Source of the DNA: a virus
Lineage: Duplodnaviria; Caudoviricetes
IMG/VR virus record: IMGVR_UViG_3300012894_000014
Location: 1-38,152 of that record
DNA length: 38,152 nt
Direction: 5' to 3' (one strand)
Each line of letters starts with the position of its first letter. The stretch's first letter is position 1. The notes under the pieces were generated by a model. The model was not told where the DNA came from. It did not search any database and saw only the letters and a program-made list of their open reading frames with translations. Below are positions 9,819 through 37,802 of this stretch, piece by piece. The position numbers and the translations under genes were made by a program.

Positions 9819-10111
9819 GCACCAAAAGTAGGCACCACCCAAAAACCGCCTTAGCGCACTAGTAAGGGCATTTTTTTAGGGGTGGTGCCTACTCTGGAGT
9901 AAGCACCAAAACTTTCTCTATAGTGAATAACACCCCTTATTATTAATTATATCCTATTTCAAACGCGAGTAACTAAGTAAAATACAAAAAATAAAATTAT
10001 AGTAAAAGGTTTTGGTGCCTACTCTAAAGTAAGCACCAAGCCCAAAAAACACCCTTTAAAATATCGCAAACGCGGTTTTTCCTGGTGCCTACTTTCTGGT
10101 GCCTACTTTTT
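9815..10111. repeat. Putative replication origin: 8 copies of TGGTGCYTAC(T) in dyad symmetry around an AT-rich core
   Basis: Copies near 9815, 9827, 9883, 9898, 10013, 10028, 10083 and 10098; directly after the primase gene. Confidence 0.75.
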
Positions 10112-32962: not shown

Positions 32963-33445
32963 ATGCCAACCTCTAACCGCATTGAAGACCTGCACCCCGA
33001 CCTAGCGCGGGTGTACACCGAAGCGAAGGCCGCCTACATTGCGGACCACCCGGGCGGGCTGCGGCCGCGGCTTGGGGAAACCAGCCGCCCGGGCAACGTG
33101 CAGGCCGCGTATTTCGCGCAAGGCCGCCAGCCGATAGCTGAAATCAACCGGCTCCGTCACATTGCGGGGCTTAATCCAATCGGCCCAGTCGAGGCGGGGA
33201 AAAAAATCACGAACGCGAAGCCGGGGCAGTCCCCACATGGGTTCCTGCCAGCGCGTGCATTCGACGTGCAGATGATGAAGCCCGATGGGTCCATTGATTG
33301 GAGCAATCCGCCCTACGCTGCCTTCGCCGCCTATGTAAAGCGAGCGGCTGCTAAGCTCGCCGTGGCCATAAGCCAAGGGCAGTACTGGACCAAATTTCCC
33401 GATCCACCCCATACCGAACTTTTGGCTTGGCGCACCATGAAGTAG
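32963..33445 (+). CDS. Endolysin, M15-family Zn peptidase
   Basis: L.PDL, E..R....Q...FAQGR, ITNAKPGQSPH..AFD and D.PH.E motifs. Confidence 0.9.
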   Translation: MPTSNRIEDLHPDLARVYTEAKAAYIADHPGGLRPRLGETSRPGNVQAAYFAQGRQPIAEINRLRHIAGLNPIGPVEAGKKITNAKPGQSPHGFLPARAFDVQMMKPDGSIDWSNPPYAAFAAYVKRAAAKLAVAISQGQYWTKFPDPPHTELLAWRTMK

Positions 33446-33934: not shown

Positions 33935-34336
33935 ATGCTTTACGCAACAATATTTCCCACCCCCGCCACCCCGCTACTGCTGGCGCTCAGTGGCTGCCTG
34001 CTGGCGCTGGCGGGCCTTGCGCGGGCCGTGCGGGACGCCGTGGCGCACGGCTCCTCGCGGCTTGCGCAGCGCGGCGCCTGGTGGCGCCTGGATAGCTGGC
34101 AGCTCAAGTACAAGAACAGCGACCCCGCGCAGGGCGCCCGCTTTCCCGGCGCCACCACGGTGCTGGTGTTTCTCACCGATAGCTGGCACTTTTTCGGCTT
34201 TGCGACATGGGCCTGCGCCGATGCGGCCTTTCTGCTGGCCGGCTGGCCAGCAATGGGCTGGTGGGCGCTGCTGCCGGTGGCGCTGCGCCGGGTGGCATTC
34301 GAACCGTTCTATTCCTTCTTACGCAAGCCGTTATGA
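33935..34336 (+). CDS. Membrane protein of unknown function
   Basis: Hydrophobic helices; SW..KYK..G.RFPG.TT..VF.TD.WH motif. Confidence 0.7.
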   Translation: MLYATIFPTPATPLLLALSGCLLALAGLARAVRDAVAHGSSRLAQRGAWWRLDSWQLKYKNSDPAQGARFPGATTVLVFLTDSWHFFGFATWACADAAFLLAGWPAMGWWALLPVALRRVAFEPFYSFLRKPL

Positions 34337-34773
34337 CTCACGACCCGCACCTCGCCGCCCTGCTCACCACCCACGCCGACCAGCTACAAGCGCTGCTACC
34401 GCCGCACCTGTGGCCCCTGGCGCCGGTAGAAATACGCCAGTACGGCCCGCTCACCAAGTACACGCTCGGCCCGGATGGCGACGAGTGGCTGCACCTGCAC
34501 CACCTTACTGAGGCCGATAGCGGCGCCCCGCACGACCACCCGACTCGCATGGATTGCCGCCTGTTGAAAGGAAGCTACACTGAGCGCATCTGGCATTTGA
34601 GGCAAGGTGAATACAAGCTGGAAAATGCCTTGCGCGAAGCCGGTGACCGCAACGTGATAGAGGCTGACCGCATTCACCTGCTAACTAGCCTGCCCGAAGG
34701 CGAGGTGTGGACGCTCGCCCGCACCGGGCCCGTCGTGCGGGAGTGGCGACATTATCCGGAGCTGCTGACCTAG
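34333..34773 (+). CDS. Cupin-like His-rich protein
   Basis: LHLHH....D...PHDHP...LLKGSY.E..H....WTL..TGP..REW pattern. Confidence 0.75.
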   Translation: MTHDPHLAALLTTHADQLQALLPPHLWPLAPVEIRQYGPLTKYTLGPDGDEWLHLHHLTEADSGAPHDHPTRMDCRLLKGSYTERIWHLRQGEYKLENALREAGDRNVIEADRIHLLTSLPEGEVWTLARTGPVVREWRHYPELLT

Positions 34774-34778
34774 CTCTC

Positions 34779-34810
34779 AAAAGCCCCGACCACACGGCCG
34801 GGGCTTTTTT
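34779..34810. terminator. Intrinsic terminator (bidirectional)
   Basis: AAAAGCCCCGACC-ACAC-GGCCGGGGCTTTTTT. Confidence 0.8.
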
Positions 34811-34852
34811 GTGCGCCGCTACTTGCGCACCAAAATATTTATTGAAAATTAT

Positions 34853-34906
34853 TATGCAAAACGCATACAACTTCAACTAACGTTCGTATATTTGTCATGT
34901 CGAACG
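34853..34906 (+). promoter_or_regulatory. Host-type promoter with palindromic operator candidates
   Basis: TATATTTG (34887-34894) flanked by CGTTCG/CGAACG; upstream TATGC-N5-GCATA. Confidence 0.65.
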
Positions 34907-34963
34907 CACTATCGCACTCGACTCACCCCAAGACCCCGCGCTGGCGGCTACCAGCGAGATGTC

Positions 34964-35158
34964 ATGTTTACCCTAACCGGAACCCCAAAGCACGCTTACA
35001 TTATTGTGGCAAAGGATATTGCCGAACAATACAATATTAAGAAAAACCCCTGGGCTAAATTAATTTGGGAAGGCGAGTATTTGGTTGGTGCTGAAATTCA
35101 AGTGAATGGCTCAACGACTTACCTAGTACGTGGCACCAACGAGTTTGAAGTAGCCTAA
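34964..35158 (+). CDS. 64-aa AT-rich hypothetical protein (cassette 1)
   Basis: ATG 6 nt after the repeated hairpin CGCTGGCGGCTACCAGCGA. Confidence 0.7.
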   Translation: MFTLTGTPKHAYIIVAKDIAEQYNIKKNPWAKLIWEGEYLVGAEIQVNGSTTYLVRGTNEFEVA

Positions 35159-35248
35159 AACCAGAAACCGCCACCAGCGGCCTTAATCGAACCAGTCGGA
35201 ATACCTTTCACAATCCCCGGCTCGCTGGCGGCTACCAGCGAAGCAAGT

Positions 35249-36070
35249 ATGAAAATAATGCTGCAACCCGCCTTCCAAGGCCAATTCGATGTTTACGCCT
35301 TTAACGAGCCGAATGCCAGCCTCGCTACGCATTCGCCAACGCTGGAAAACGTAACCTATCCGCAATTTTACGCATGGTTTCATAATCAGCCCGGCAGCTC
35401 GGTTGCCTTGCCGGATGGCGGCTGGAAAGTAGTTCGAGAATGGCAGGCTGGCAGTAACGCTAGCGTGGAAGCGCTACCGACTGGCAGCAGCGACTTAATT
35501 TGGTTGTGCGAAGCGGGTCAGCGCGTATCCCATCCGGCGCACAGCAAGAGCTATTGCAAGGCAACCTTTGCCTCGCCGAGGCACTACCGCTATTGCCAGG
35601 AGCGCGAAATAGTTGAAAATCCTGCTAGCCAGCAGGACTTGCTCACGCTGAACATTGACGGACTCAGTAAGCTGGATACTGAGTGCGGCTATCGTAATCA
35701 CGCCGCTGGCTTGGCGGCCGACTGGAAGCAACTGCGCGTTGCTGTTCCGTACAGCAACGCGTTCGGTGAACGTATTGTGGCGGCGTTTACAGCCCGGCTC
35801 TATGCCGACGAGCAGCGGGCTATCTTGGATTTGTCTTTTGTTGATGGTTCAACCTGCCTGCAATTTGAGGCCCCGGCCGCCTGGGCTAATGCAGCGAACG
35901 TACCATTTGCCGGTTATCGAGGCGAATATGATTCCTTGCCCGCCGCTGGCTTAGGTGGCAATTTTGGCGAGGTTCGCCAGCATGGCAATGGCGCAGTAGT
36001 GCTGACGCCGGAACTGGCAAAGTTGGCGGCCGCCTATCACGACGAGCAATCGAAAGCTATTGAATATTAA
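35249..36070 (+). CDS. 273-aa hypothetical protein (cassette 2)
   Basis: ATG 7 nt after the same hairpin; no family recognised. Confidence 0.75.
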   Translation: MKIMLQPAFQGQFDVYAFNEPNASLATHSPTLENVTYPQFYAWFHNQPGSSVALPDGGWKVVREWQAGSNASVEALPTGSSDLIWLCEAGQRVSHPAHSKSYCKATFASPRHYRYCQEREIVENPASQQDLLTLNIDGLSKLDTECGYRNHAAGLAADWKQLRVAVPYSNAFGERIVAAFTARLYADEQRAILDLSFVDGSTCLQFEAPAAWANAANVPFAGYRGEYDSLPAAGLGGNFGEVRQHGNGAVVLTPELAKLAAAYHDEQSKAIEY

Positions 36071-36076
36071 ACCAAA

Positions 36077-36106
36077 AACCGCCACCAGCGGCTACTGGTG
36101 GCGGTT
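36077..36106. repeat. Perfect 12-bp-stem hairpin with CGGCTA loop
   Basis: AACCGCCACCAG-CGGCTA-CTGGTGGCGGTT; its left arm is repeated at 35166-35181. Confidence 0.8.
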
Positions 36107-36162
36107 CTAGTTCCAACTGGTTCGATTGAATCCTAACCGGGCCGATTGAGGCCACAAGTATA

Positions 36163-36402
36163 ATGGAAAATCCGCAACCCCGCGACCTCGCCACCGAAGT
36201 CGCGCACCTCAAAGCTTGGTGGGCTACCCGCCCCAGCCTCAAGGCCCCGGCCGTGAGCCTGGAGGCTGGCCGCCACCGCAACACGCTGCCGCAGGTGCTC
36301 AGTGGCCAGACCGCCGCTACGGCCAGCCTGCTCGACAGCTTCTACCCAACGCTTGGCAAATACGGCTACATGCCACTTACGAACGACTACCAGTTTCTGT
36401 AA
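36163..36402 (+). CDS. Small HTH-like regulator
   Basis: LKAPAVSLEAGRHRNTLPQVLSG fits a helix-turn-helix pattern. Confidence 0.6.
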   Translation: MENPQPRDLATEVAHLKAWWATRPSLKAPAVSLEAGRHRNTLPQVLSGQTAATASLLDSFYPTLGKYGYMPLTNDYQFL

Positions 36403-36485: not shown

Positions 36486-36519
36486 AACCGCCCCCGCGCC
36501 AGCAGGCACGGGGGCGGTT
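36486..36519. terminator. Hairpin between the convergent HTH-like gene and integrase
   Basis: AACCGCCCCCGCGCC-AGCA-GGCACGGGGGCGGTT. Confidence 0.65.
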
Positions 36520-36542: not shown

Positions 36543-37802
36543 TTACGCAGCCAGCAGGCGCTCGGTAAATTCTCGCAGAAAGGGCTTGCGCTGCTGACTC
36601 ATACCCAGCACTTCCAGCCCATACACCTTACTCAGTTCTGAGTGCACCGTGTCGGGCAGCACGCTGGCGTAGGTGCTTTGCGTAATGGAAACCGAGCGAT
36701 GCCCGAGCACGGCGCTTACTATCGTCATAGGCACCCCGTCTTGCAGCAGCACCATGCCCGCCGTTTTTCGCCCCACGTGGGTAGTGAGGTGCTGCGAGAA
36801 ACCGCAGAGGTAACCGATTTGCTTCAGGGCCCGGTTTTGGTATTCATTGCTGGGCATCGGCAACCGCTCGCCGCCGTAACGAGCCAGTAGCTCAATAGCC
36901 GGCGCAAAGAAGGGTATCATAGTGACAGTGCCCGTTTTCTGGCGGGCAATGCGAATGAGTAGCCCACCAGATGGTTGGGGCACGACGTGCTCCGAGGCGC
37001 GAAAATTGGTAGCGTCCTGCCAGGACAGGCCTGTAAAACATTGGAAAAGAAACATGTCAGCAGCTTTTCTCAGCCCCGCTGCTTCAAAGTCGTAGTACCA
37101 TAGCTTTACTAAGTCGGCAGGTGTAAGGAAGACGGCGGGCTTAGGCGGTTCTTTCTTAGCTGAAAAGCCCTCCATCGGATTGCGGTCGAGTAGCTCATGC
37201 CTGACTGCCCATTTTAGCACCGCTCCCACCGCGTCGAGCACCTTAAGGGCATAGTTCTGGCTTTTGCCGTCTGAGCGTAGATGCTCCAGCAACTGCTCTG
37301 CGCGGCGAATGCTCATTTCGGCCGGCCGCATCTGCAAGTTATTCGTGTCTGTTAGCCAAGCCTCAAGCCGGGCCAGGCGCACGCCGTCTGCCTCGCGGGT
37401 GGCCTTGGTAATCTGGCTGCTCTCAGCCTGGGCGGTGCGAGCAGCGAGGTAGCGGCCAGCCACTTCAAGTAGCGAGGCAGTACGGCGCTGCGGGGCCTGA
37501 AAACGCACTACTACCTTTTCGGGCGTGATGTAGGAGCCTTCGCGCTCCAGAATATTGAAGGCTTCGCGCAGGCCCGTGGCCAGCTGGGTGAGGCGCTGAT
37601 TGGCCACCTTGACTTCATCCGTTCGGCCCCGTACTAATTGGCGCGGCGCATCCCAATCATTTTTCTGCGCATACACGCCCGTGCTGAAATTATACTCGGC
37701 CTTATCGACTGTTACCCGGCACTGAATGGTGCCGGGGCGTTCGAGGGCGCGGGTGTTTTTGCGAAACCAAAAGAGCAGGGTCATGTAGTGGCGAAGTAGC
37801 AT
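36543..37802 (-). CDS. int: Tyrosine integrase (arm-binding, SAM-like and catalytic domains)
   Basis: FQCFTGLS..D, RQKT, TTHVGRKT and LGH..T..TY motifs; adjacent to att/tRNA; start uncertain (37784-37823). Confidence 0.95.
   Translation of the reverse strand: MLLRHYMTLLFWFRKNTRALERPGTIQCRVTVDKAEYNFSTGVYAQKNDWDAPRQLVRGRTDEVKVANQRLTQLATGLREAFNILEREGSYITPEKVVVRFQAPQRRTASLLEVAGRYLAARTAQAESSQITKATREADGVRLARLEAWLTDTNNLQMRPAEMSIRRAEQLLEHLRSDGKSQNYALKVLDAVGAVLKWAVRHELLDRNPMEGFSAKKEPPKPAVFLTPADLVKLWYYDFEAAGLRKAADMFLFQCFTGLSWQDATNFRASEHVVPQPSGGLLIRIARQKTGTVTMIPFFAPAIELLARYGGERLPMPSNEYQNRALKQIGYLCGFSQHLTTHVGRKTAGMVLLQDGVPMTIVSAVLGHRSVSITQSTYASVLPDTVHSELSKVYGLEVLGMSQQRKPFLREFTERLLAA

What the first reader, a model, noticed from the sequence alone, without database searches (positions are those of the whole stretch)
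34840..36402. Repeat-punctuated cassette operon ending in an HTH-like gene: candidate anti-defence (acr-aca-like) array
Seen: an insulated unit between two terminators, with a host-type promoter carrying palindromes. Two unknown ORFs are each preceded by an identical 19-nt hairpin CGCTGGCGGCTACCAGCGA (34939-34957, 35223-35241) and each followed by AAACCARAAACCGCCACCAGCGGC (35158-35181, 36069-36092; 23/24 identical). Both hairpin types share the loop CGGCTA. A small HTH-like gene closes the unit. Known: acr-aca operons have a promoter with inverted repeats, variable small genes and a terminal HTH autorepressor. Inference: an expandable array in which genes are swapped by recombination between the repeats and the CGGCTA hairpins are protein-binding or processing signals.
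Basis: partly seen in the sequence, partly recalled or inferred. Interest (0 to 1): 0.8.

Follow-up and report, generated by a model that had tools for sequence, protein, structure and literature searches.

The report
Phage operon carrying CRISPR-repeat mimics
A bacterial virus carries a small swappable gene unit, ending in a predicted repressor gene, that holds partial copies of a CRISPR repeat used by bacteria that target this virus, so it likely helps the virus blunt CRISPR immunity.

Summary
The repeats are real. The window is a whole temperate phage, likely of Hymenobacter. The unit is promoter, ORF1, ORF2, then an XRE-fold HTH gene. Five loci with this HTH carry four different cargo genes behind a conserved CGGC(T)A leader hairpin. 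A sister phage lacks exactly the 911-bp ORF2 unit.

They are the three best profile hits in 38 kb (14.9, 19.8 and 10.0 bits; best in 400 kb of host DNA 10.3). Spacers from that repeat family match this phage with CCN PAMs.

Best reading: an acr-aca-like operon with Racr-like RNA decoys against type I-B (0.5). No function is shown. The cargo has no known homologue, the mimics lack the 3' handle, and three of five loci lack them. The gene-flanking repeats look like duplicated leader and terminator parts, not integron sites. The scan had not noted this locus on other DNA; one note describes a similar layout elsewhere.

The parts
34779..34808 (.). Upstream terminator-like hairpin; left edge of the block shared with L001
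34853..34867 (.). Operator-like palindrome TATGC-AAAAC-GCATA; relatives have TGCA-N3-TGCA upstream of the promoter box
   Evidence: binding by the HTH is inferred
34887..34894 (+). Bacteroidota-type -7 promoter box TATATTTG (consensus recalled); a TAnnTTTG box lies in the same place in L001, L002, L007, L011
34939..34957 (+). Leader hairpin 1, loop CGGCTA, ending 6 nt before the ORF1 start
34964..35158 (+). ORF1, 64 aa, small beta-rich protein of unknown function; homologues in L001 (97%) and L002 (52%); candidate Acr
35158..35181 (+). 24-nt repeat copy 1: bare left arm of the terminator hairpin, broken off in the loop
35181..35200 (+). Partial type I-B CRISPR repeat on the operon's sense strand, 23 nt after the ORF1 stop; 16/20 to the nearest array repeat, 3' handle absent; Racr-like candidate
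35202..35209 (+). TACCTTTC, one mismatch from a -7 box; doubtful internal promoter
   Evidence: not enriched in host DNA
35223..35241 (+). Leader hairpin 2, identical to hairpin 1, ending 7 nt before the ORF2 start
35249..36070 (+). ORF2, 273 aa, acidic (pI 5.3), no homologue found; absent from L001
36069..36106 (.). 24-nt repeat copy 2 and complete 12-bp hairpin with loop CGGCTA; terminator-like on the minus strand, weak U tail on plus; one compensatory pair change in L001
36112..36131 (-). Partial type I-B repeat (U2), 17/20 and 21/28 to the nearest array repeat; kept in L001
36132..36151 (-). More degenerate type I-B repeat (U1), 15/20; its handle-like end overlaps U2; identical in L001
36163..36402 (+). 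79-aa four-helix XRE/Cro-type HTH protein; candidate Aca-like autorepressor
36486..36519 (.). Downstream hairpin between the HTH gene and the convergent integrase gene
36874..36910 (+). Protospacer in the integrase gene: exact match to a repeat-flanked spacer record in run X1, 5' flank CCG
32972..33034 (.). Two protospacers (4 and 5 mismatches, both with 5' flank CCC) for spacers of the array in L098

Best explanation
This is a swappable accessory operon of a temperate phage that likely works as an acr-aca-type anti-CRISPR unit against type I-B CRISPR-Cas, with a predicted HTH autorepressor and partial CRISPR repeats that would act as RNA decoys. Shown: the anatomy; cargo exchange between relatives; presence or absence of the 911-bp ORF2 unit; the XRE fold of the model; the likeness of three intergenic stretches to a type I-B repeat family; and spacers of that family matching this phage. 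Inferred steps: (1) The promoter at 34887 fires on entry or induction and makes one RNA through ORF1, the repeat mimic and ORF2, with partial read-through of the 36077 hairpin into the HTH gene. (2) Host Cas6b binds and cuts the mimic after position 35200. The upstream piece, which has no 5' handle, ties up Cas6 and Cas7 as RacrIF1 does. (3) ORF1 and/or ORF2 are protein inhibitors. (4) The HTH dimer binds the TGCA-N3-TGCA-type palindrome to shut the promoter, and may bind the CGGC(U)A hairpins beside each start codon as Aca1 and Aca2 bind theirs. (5) The ORF2 module entered by a crossover in the terminator loop. This left the 24-nt duplication, which would let it drop out again by ordinary recombination, as with T4 PeSL cassettes.
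For: Cargo swap: (4 cargo types in 5 loci; HTH 75/76 identical between L002 and L007). L001 equals the window minus the ORF2 unit, with 96% identity over 34779-35181. Operator-like palindrome in 5 of 5 loci, perfect in L002, L007 and L011 and one mismatch in the window and L001; 8 strand-counted TGCA-N3-TGCA hits in 400 kb of host DNA. Leader hairpin with loop CGGCTA or CGGCA 6-11 nt before the cargo start in 5 of 5 loci. HTH model pLDDT 85, best Z 6.9 (rmsd 4.7, 71 aligned) to an XRE protein. A profile of the first 20 nt of 17 distinct repeats from 22 arrays ranks the three unit elements first in the window (19.8, 14.9, 10.0; next 4.5), with 0 sites of 12 bits or more in 400 kb of host DNA. 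The repeat family occurs in 39 of 165 genomes of the genus searched and follows a full I-B operon in G261. Spacer matches: 1 exact from run X1, and 2 of 457 array spacers at 4-5 mismatches against 0 of 457 reversed controls, all with CCN flanks. Another phage (L120) has a complete solitary repeat with the same core directly behind a TAnnTTTG box. [quoted passage not shown] Aca1 and Aca2 bind promoter repeats and 5' UTR hairpins, with motifs also predicted between genes (PMC13551039).
Against: No cargo protein matches a known Acr or anti-defence family, and the HTH matches no known Aca by sequence. The mimics are partial: with the full 28-nt profile the sense-strand copy scores only 0.7 bits, and its predicted stem is weak (-0.9 kcal/mol). 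L002, L007 and L011 have no mimic in the unit. The two copies shared with L001 lie on the minus strand, and no minus-strand promoter box next to them is conserved in L001. The 19-nt mimic pattern also hit 3 coding-sequence records of one unrelated virus among 5 hits, and a coding site in L085 scored 11.7. The leader hairpin in L002, L007 and L011 is only 4 bp and not more stable than shuffles (z +0.4 to +0.8); two stem types cannot show covariation. A 12-bp hairpin separates cargo from the HTH gene in the window and L001. Distant HTH relatives often stand first, ahead of a promoter and unrelated genes such as antirepressors. The array search pattern was written after seeing the window elements.
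Confidence: 0.5

Rival explanations
1. An autoregulated accessory (moron) operon with a non-CRISPR job, such as anti-restriction, superinfection exclusion or lysogenic conversion. The repeat-like stretches are relics picked up from a host CRISPR locus and do nothing.
For: It lies in the lysis-integrase slot where accessory genes vary. 3 of 5 close loci lack mimics. No cargo has an Acr match.
Against: U1 is identical and U2 nearly so in L001. A further copy sits in sense orientation just after ORF1. The phage is targeted by the same repeat family.
Confidence: 0.27
2. The repeat-like stretches are DNA sites: imperfect palindromes serving as operators or as inverted recombination sites flanking ORF2. 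Their likeness to CRISPR repeats is incidental.
For: The two best copies form a 17-nt inverted repeat around ORF2. Each reads as an imperfect palindrome with a 6-nt centre. The whole unit is inverted between L001 and L002/L007 relative to the lysis-side flank.
Against: 16-18 of 20 positions match real repeats, ending at the expected cut site. L001 has only the right-hand copies. No inverted ORF2 allele was seen.
Confidence: 0.09
3. A dedicated integron-like cassette array, in which a recombinase recognises the CGGCTA hairpins and adds or removes genes.
For: The ORF2 unit's edge falls inside the hairpin loop and duplicates its left arm. The loop is the same in leader and terminator hairpins although the arms are exchanged. 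L001 has a compensatory pair change.
Against: There is only one insertion event. No close relative has paired repeats or more than one cargo gene. No second recombinase was noticed among the window's ORFs. L025 expands by duplicating promoter and operator instead.
Confidence: 0.08
4. A type II toxin-antitoxin pair: ORF1 is the toxin and the HTH the antitoxin, with ORF2 as a passenger.
For: Cargo and HTH are coupled by TAATG in L002, L007 and L011. The XRE fold also resembles HipB and HigA.
Against: A near-identical HTH sits behind unrelated cargo in L002 and L007. The HTH is a lone four-helix domain. A hairpin separates the two genes in the window and L001.
Confidence: 0.06

Closest known systems
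acr-aca operons with dual DNA/RNA control (Aca2 of phage ZF40, Aca1 of JBD30; PMC13551039)
   Same: Promoter with inverted repeat, hairpin in the 5' leader and between genes, small variable genes, terminal HTH gene in a prophage.
   Different: The HTH family has no sequence match to solved Aca proteins (fold likeness to Aca10 only Z 4.9). No known acr is in the operon. The host is Bacteroidota, and the paper's main text has 0 hits for 'bacteroid' or 'hymenobacter'. The hairpin ends 6-11 nt from the start codon, against about 20 nt for Aca1.
RNA anti-CRISPRs from solitary repeat units (RacrIF1, RacrIC1 with acrIC5; PMC10651486)
   Same: An intergenic repeat mimic just downstream of a small gene on the same strand, matching a CRISPR type present in the host genus.
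   Different: Type I-B; the tested Racrs in that paper are I-C, I-E, I-F and V-A. The copies are partial (first 20 of 28 nt), three per locus, and two lie on the opposite strand in tandem.
PeSL regulatory cassettes of T4-type phages RB49/phi1 (PMC2839356)
   Same: An orphan gene flanked by repeated regulatory elements is present in one phage and replaced by a single element in its sister; crossover can fall in a stem-loop's loop.
   Different: Temperate phage, one locus and two copies rather than many; regulator gene and CRISPR-repeat mimics included; no mini-circle shown.
Viral crlRNA/Cracr and CreA/CreR mini-arrays (bioRxiv 10.1101/2024.10.29.618823)
   Same: Degenerate repeat(s) followed by a terminator on the minus strand.
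   Different: There is no spacer-like stretch between U1 and U2. No target in a cas promoter was sought beyond inspection.

Membership tests
acr-aca operon | Terminal small HTH regulator gene | tested here: met
acr-aca operon | Variable small upstream genes with a constant regulator | tested here: met
   4 cargo types in 5 loci
acr-aca operon | Conserved inverted repeat at the promoter | tested here: met
   5 of 5 loci, imperfect in the window and L001, position differs in L011
acr-aca operon | Homology of the HTH to a named Aca family | tested here: inconclusive
   No sequence match in Pfam, NCBIfam or PDB sequences; no dedicated Aca profile library was available
acr-aca operon | A known or validated acr gene in the operon | tested here: inconclusive
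   No match; these libraries miss most Acrs
acr-aca operon | HTH binds and represses the promoter | not testable with these tools
   needs EMSA or a reporter
Aca1/Aca2-type RNA operator | Conserved 5' UTR hairpin with significant covariation | tested here: inconclusive
   Position and loop conserved, but only two stem types; the 4-bp form is not stable beyond shuffles
Racr / solitary repeat unit | Similarity to a repeat of a CRISPR type found in the host group | tested here: met
Racr / solitary repeat unit | Full-length, truly solitary repeat match (SRUFinder criteria, passage) | tested here: not met
   19-21 of 28 identical, handle lost; U1 and U2 are adjacent
Racr / solitary repeat unit | Intergenic, downstream of a promoter, on the transcribed strand | tested here: inconclusive
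   Met in sequence for 35181-35200; no conserved promoter found for U1/U2; no RNA data
Racr / solitary repeat unit | Cas6 processing and CRISPR inhibition | not testable with these tools
   needs a biochemical or phage assay
Integron-like cassette array | Recombination site repeated with each cassette across relatives, plus a dedicated recombinase | tested here: not met
   Paired repeats only in the window; single-cargo relatives
Type II toxin-antitoxin | Fixed cognate toxin partner | tested here: not met
   HTH 75/76 identical with unrelated cargo in L002 and L007

The most novel reading that the evidence does not exclude
A Bacteroidota anti-CRISPR operon with a new Aca family that reads both a DNA palindrome and CGGC(U)A RNA loops. 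Its mobile cargo module brings its own type I-B repeat mimic. Host Cas6 cutting at the mimic would both create a decoy RNA and release a separate ORF2 message, so the phage would use the host's CRISPR enzyme as a sensor to tune its counter-defence.
Probability: 0.12. Interest if true: 0.9.

Novelty: new variant of a known kind. Interest (0 to 1): 0.68.

Why it matters
If right, it gives a candidate type I-B RNA anti-CRISPR, a candidate Aca family with a defined DNA palindrome and RNA loop in Bacteroidota, and at least four unannotated cargo proteins to test as type I-B inhibitors. It would also show that handle-less partial repeats, which a full-length SRU search would drop, can be functional, widening the search space for Racrs. 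It also captures a cargo module in both present and absent states.

Tried and rejected
Chance hits dropped: L003, L008, L013 and L014, L118, L119 and L121, L028 and L029, and LacI-size HTH hits (judged by frame length, not inspected). Duplicate loci were counted once: L004, L005, L010, L026, L084, L091 and L122 = L001; L006, L012, L027 and L085 = L002; L015 and L087 = L007; L009 = the window.

Run X1's ORF2-less contig is identical to L001 over the stretch laid, so it is not a second event. No RNA holder was listed. Two short ORF2 fragments at 100% identity in X2 and X3 (214 and 151 nt, depth about 2) give no context.

ORF2: no homologue; Atlas model pTM 0.23. ORF1: 0 of 165 genus genomes; no clear fold match (best Z 4.0; no E<=0.001; Atlas TM<=0.61). 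Leader motif with promoter: 0 of 165 genomes. Rfam gave one chance hit.

An internal promoter at 35202 is not supported by host enrichment, although the canonical TAnnTTTG box showed none either. The repeat-like motif is not the phage immunity operator: it is absent from 696-850. One search had a scripting error in the profile cut and was redone. No ORF1-HTH complex prediction was obtained. The Aca2 RNA paper (Nature 2024) is not held, so whether Aca2 loops resemble CGGC(U)A was not checked.

Full report
Setting. The window is a complete temperate tailed phage. A 14-nt repeat at 110 and 38030 overlaps a tRNA-Ser gene, and a tyrosine integrase lies at 36543-37787 on the minus strand. Repressor, replication, head, tail and lysis genes were read from the ORF lists by eye. 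The host is likely Hymenobacter. The only plasmid match to the HTH is from H. tibetensis, and the promoters are of the Bacteroidota TAnnTTTG type (consensus recalled). The 165-genome set used below is the genus of G106, picked by 85% identity to a host-flank protein of L011; its name is inferred, not given. The unit lies between the lysis region and the integrase.

Observation. All stated repeats are present and exceed chance. Only the second 24-mer is part of a hairpin. The first is its left arm, broken off in the loop.

Relatives. The HTH has 10 protein clusters at E<=0.01 in a word-seeded search and 34 representatives at E<=0.001 in an exhaustive one. DNA was obtained for 4 distinct close loci besides the window. 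L001 shares promoter, leader and ORF1 (178/185 and 190/195 nt) and the HTH gene (225/240). It runs from the ORF1 stop straight into a complete hairpin with one compensatory pair change, so the 911-bp ORF2 unit is absent. L002 has an ORF1 homologue (52%) coupled by TAATG to the HTH. L007 has the promoter and leader of L002 and an HTH 75/76 identical, but a different, acidic 121-aa cargo. L011 has a third cargo. The cargo types were judged unrelated by inspection and by the ORF1 profile retrieving only L001 and L002. All five loci have a TGCA-N3-TGCA-type palindrome upstream of the -7 box and a hairpin with loop CGGCTA or CGGCA just before the cargo start. In L002 and L007 the unit is inverted relative to the lysis-side terminator shared with L001; L011 has the same gene order as L002 and L007.

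More distant loci. 8 of 165 genus genomes have a distant HTH. L025 carries two cargo genes, each behind its own near-copy of a promoter, the second 57% identical to the L007 cargo, followed by the HTH. L051 has that cargo domain fused to what looks like another HTH in the same lysis-integrase slot. Other distant loci put the HTH first or beside an antirepressor, so the layout is not fixed across the wider family.

The HTH. An AlphaFold model from 17 sequences has four helices and mean pLDDT 85. It matches XRE/Cro proteins at middling scores (best Z 6.9; Aca10 4.9), and relatives hit HTH_3 and HTH_31. This gives the fold, not the function.

The CRISPR link. Laying run X1 on L001 showed a 37-nt record matching the integrase gene, flanked on both sides by a 27-28-nt repeat. 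That spacer also matches the window exactly at 36874-36910. A pattern for the repeat found matches in 39 of 165 genomes, most as arrays, with 0 in the reversed control. In G261 the array follows cas6b-cas5b-cas3b-cas8b-cas7b-cas4-cas1-cas2, which is type I-B. The array lies on the same strand as the operon, which I take as the transcribed direction. I built a profile from 17 distinct repeats of 22 arrays, taken from the 25 loci returned out of 39 genomes. Its first 20 positions, up to the expected Cas6 cut before the 8-nt handle (position recalled), rank 36131-36112 (-, 19.8 bits), 35181-35200 (+, 14.9) and 36151-36132 (-, 10.0) first in the window; the next site scores 4.5. In 400 kb of G344 the best is 10.3 and none reaches 12. 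With the full 28 positions the scores are 12.0, 0.7 and 8.6 against a host best of 4.3, so the handle is lost, wholly so in the sense copy. Of 457 spacers, 2 match the window at 4-5 mismatches (0 of 457 reversed). All three protospacers have CCN on the 5' side. A scan of viral contigs for the 19-nt core gave 5 records: L001, three coding hits in one unrelated virus, and L120, where a complete solitary repeat follows a TAnnTTTG box. The window copies match L120's repeat at 17/20 and 18/20. L002, L007 and L011 have no such element in the unit.

Mechanism. See Best explanation. The sense-strand mimic lies 23 nt after ORF1, much as RacrIC1 lies 11 nt after acrIC5. Loss of the handle is compatible with function, because the RacrIF1 part upstream of the cut carries the inhibition (PMC10651486). 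The minus-strand pair would need its own transcript ending at the 36106-36070 terminator. A one-mismatch box at 36160 exists in the window but not in L001, so integrase read-through is a guess. The 19- and 24-nt repeats are most simply the duplicated leader and terminator arm left when a second module joined by a crossover in the loop. They would then allow loss of ORF2 or ORF1 by ordinary recombination, as shown for PeSLs (PMC2839356). The direction of the event (gain in the window or loss in L001) is not shown.

Against this reading. No cargo or HTH match to known anti-defence families. The mimics are partial and present in only 2 of 5 loci. There are no expression data. The leader hairpin is weak in three loci. 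GCTA apices are not rare in host hairpins. One presence/absence event only.

Literature seen. PMC13551039: abstract, passages, and Results parts 1-2 of 3. PMC2839356: abstract and passages. [quoted passage not shown] PMC10732046 (AcrIB2): search listing only. Searches for a description of this locus or family gave nothing relevant; most subscription papers are not covered. Earlier scan notes: none by sequence or place, and one similar layout with a Fis-type regulator, not tested here.

Verdict. Real, and richer than first read. It likely works like an acr-aca operon with Racr-like decoys against type I-B CRISPR-Cas. It is not filed as a member of either family, because no known acr is present and the repeats fail the full-length criterion. 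New variant of a known kind; interest 0.68.

Noticed in passing
L120:1466-1526: A complete solitary type I-B-like repeat directly behind a TAnnTTTG promoter box, among small unknown genes in a 37% GC phage: a cleaner Racr candidate than the window's.
   Followed up: partly
L117:2290-2600 (G261): Several degenerate repeats with short spacers upstream of the type I-B cas operon; looks like a CreA/CreR-type regulatory mini-array.
   Followed up: no
L025:1384-2420: Two near-identical promoter blocks, each ahead of one small gene, then a distant HTH, beside a tRNA gene.
   Followed up: partly
L051:1037-1836; L052:1429-1707; L053:1468-1683: The acidic L007 cargo domain recurs fused to an HTH-like tail, in a small-gene operon of another element, and alone; 4 of 165 genomes.
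   Followed up: partly
window 14497, 24879, 28415; 24926, 28462; 16796, 20214: Other exact or near-exact repeats (19-24 nt) ahead of or between structural genes, likely late-gene regulatory motifs.
   Followed up: no
window 9841-9915 and 10006-10080: 75-nt inverted repeat, 75% complementary, downstream of the primase-like gene.
   Followed up: no
window 34333-34773: Gene just upstream of the unit matches a phage cysteine-dioxygenase-like family (phrog_4786, E 2.9e-13); this slot holds other genes in L001.
   Followed up: no
L011:1967-2616: A second accessory unit: a ribbon-helix-helix-like gene (by inspection) divergent from a TAnnTTTG promoter and an unknown 113-aa gene, followed by an HNH-like gene.
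   Followed up: no
L018:1830-1855; L019; L020: Distant HTH loci share a different leader hairpin (GTCGCCGCA..GAAGCGGC type) right after a promoter that follows the HTH gene.
   Followed up: partly
L055:1082-2418: Tandem duplication of an HTH plus small-gene module in a Cytophagales genome.
   Followed up: no
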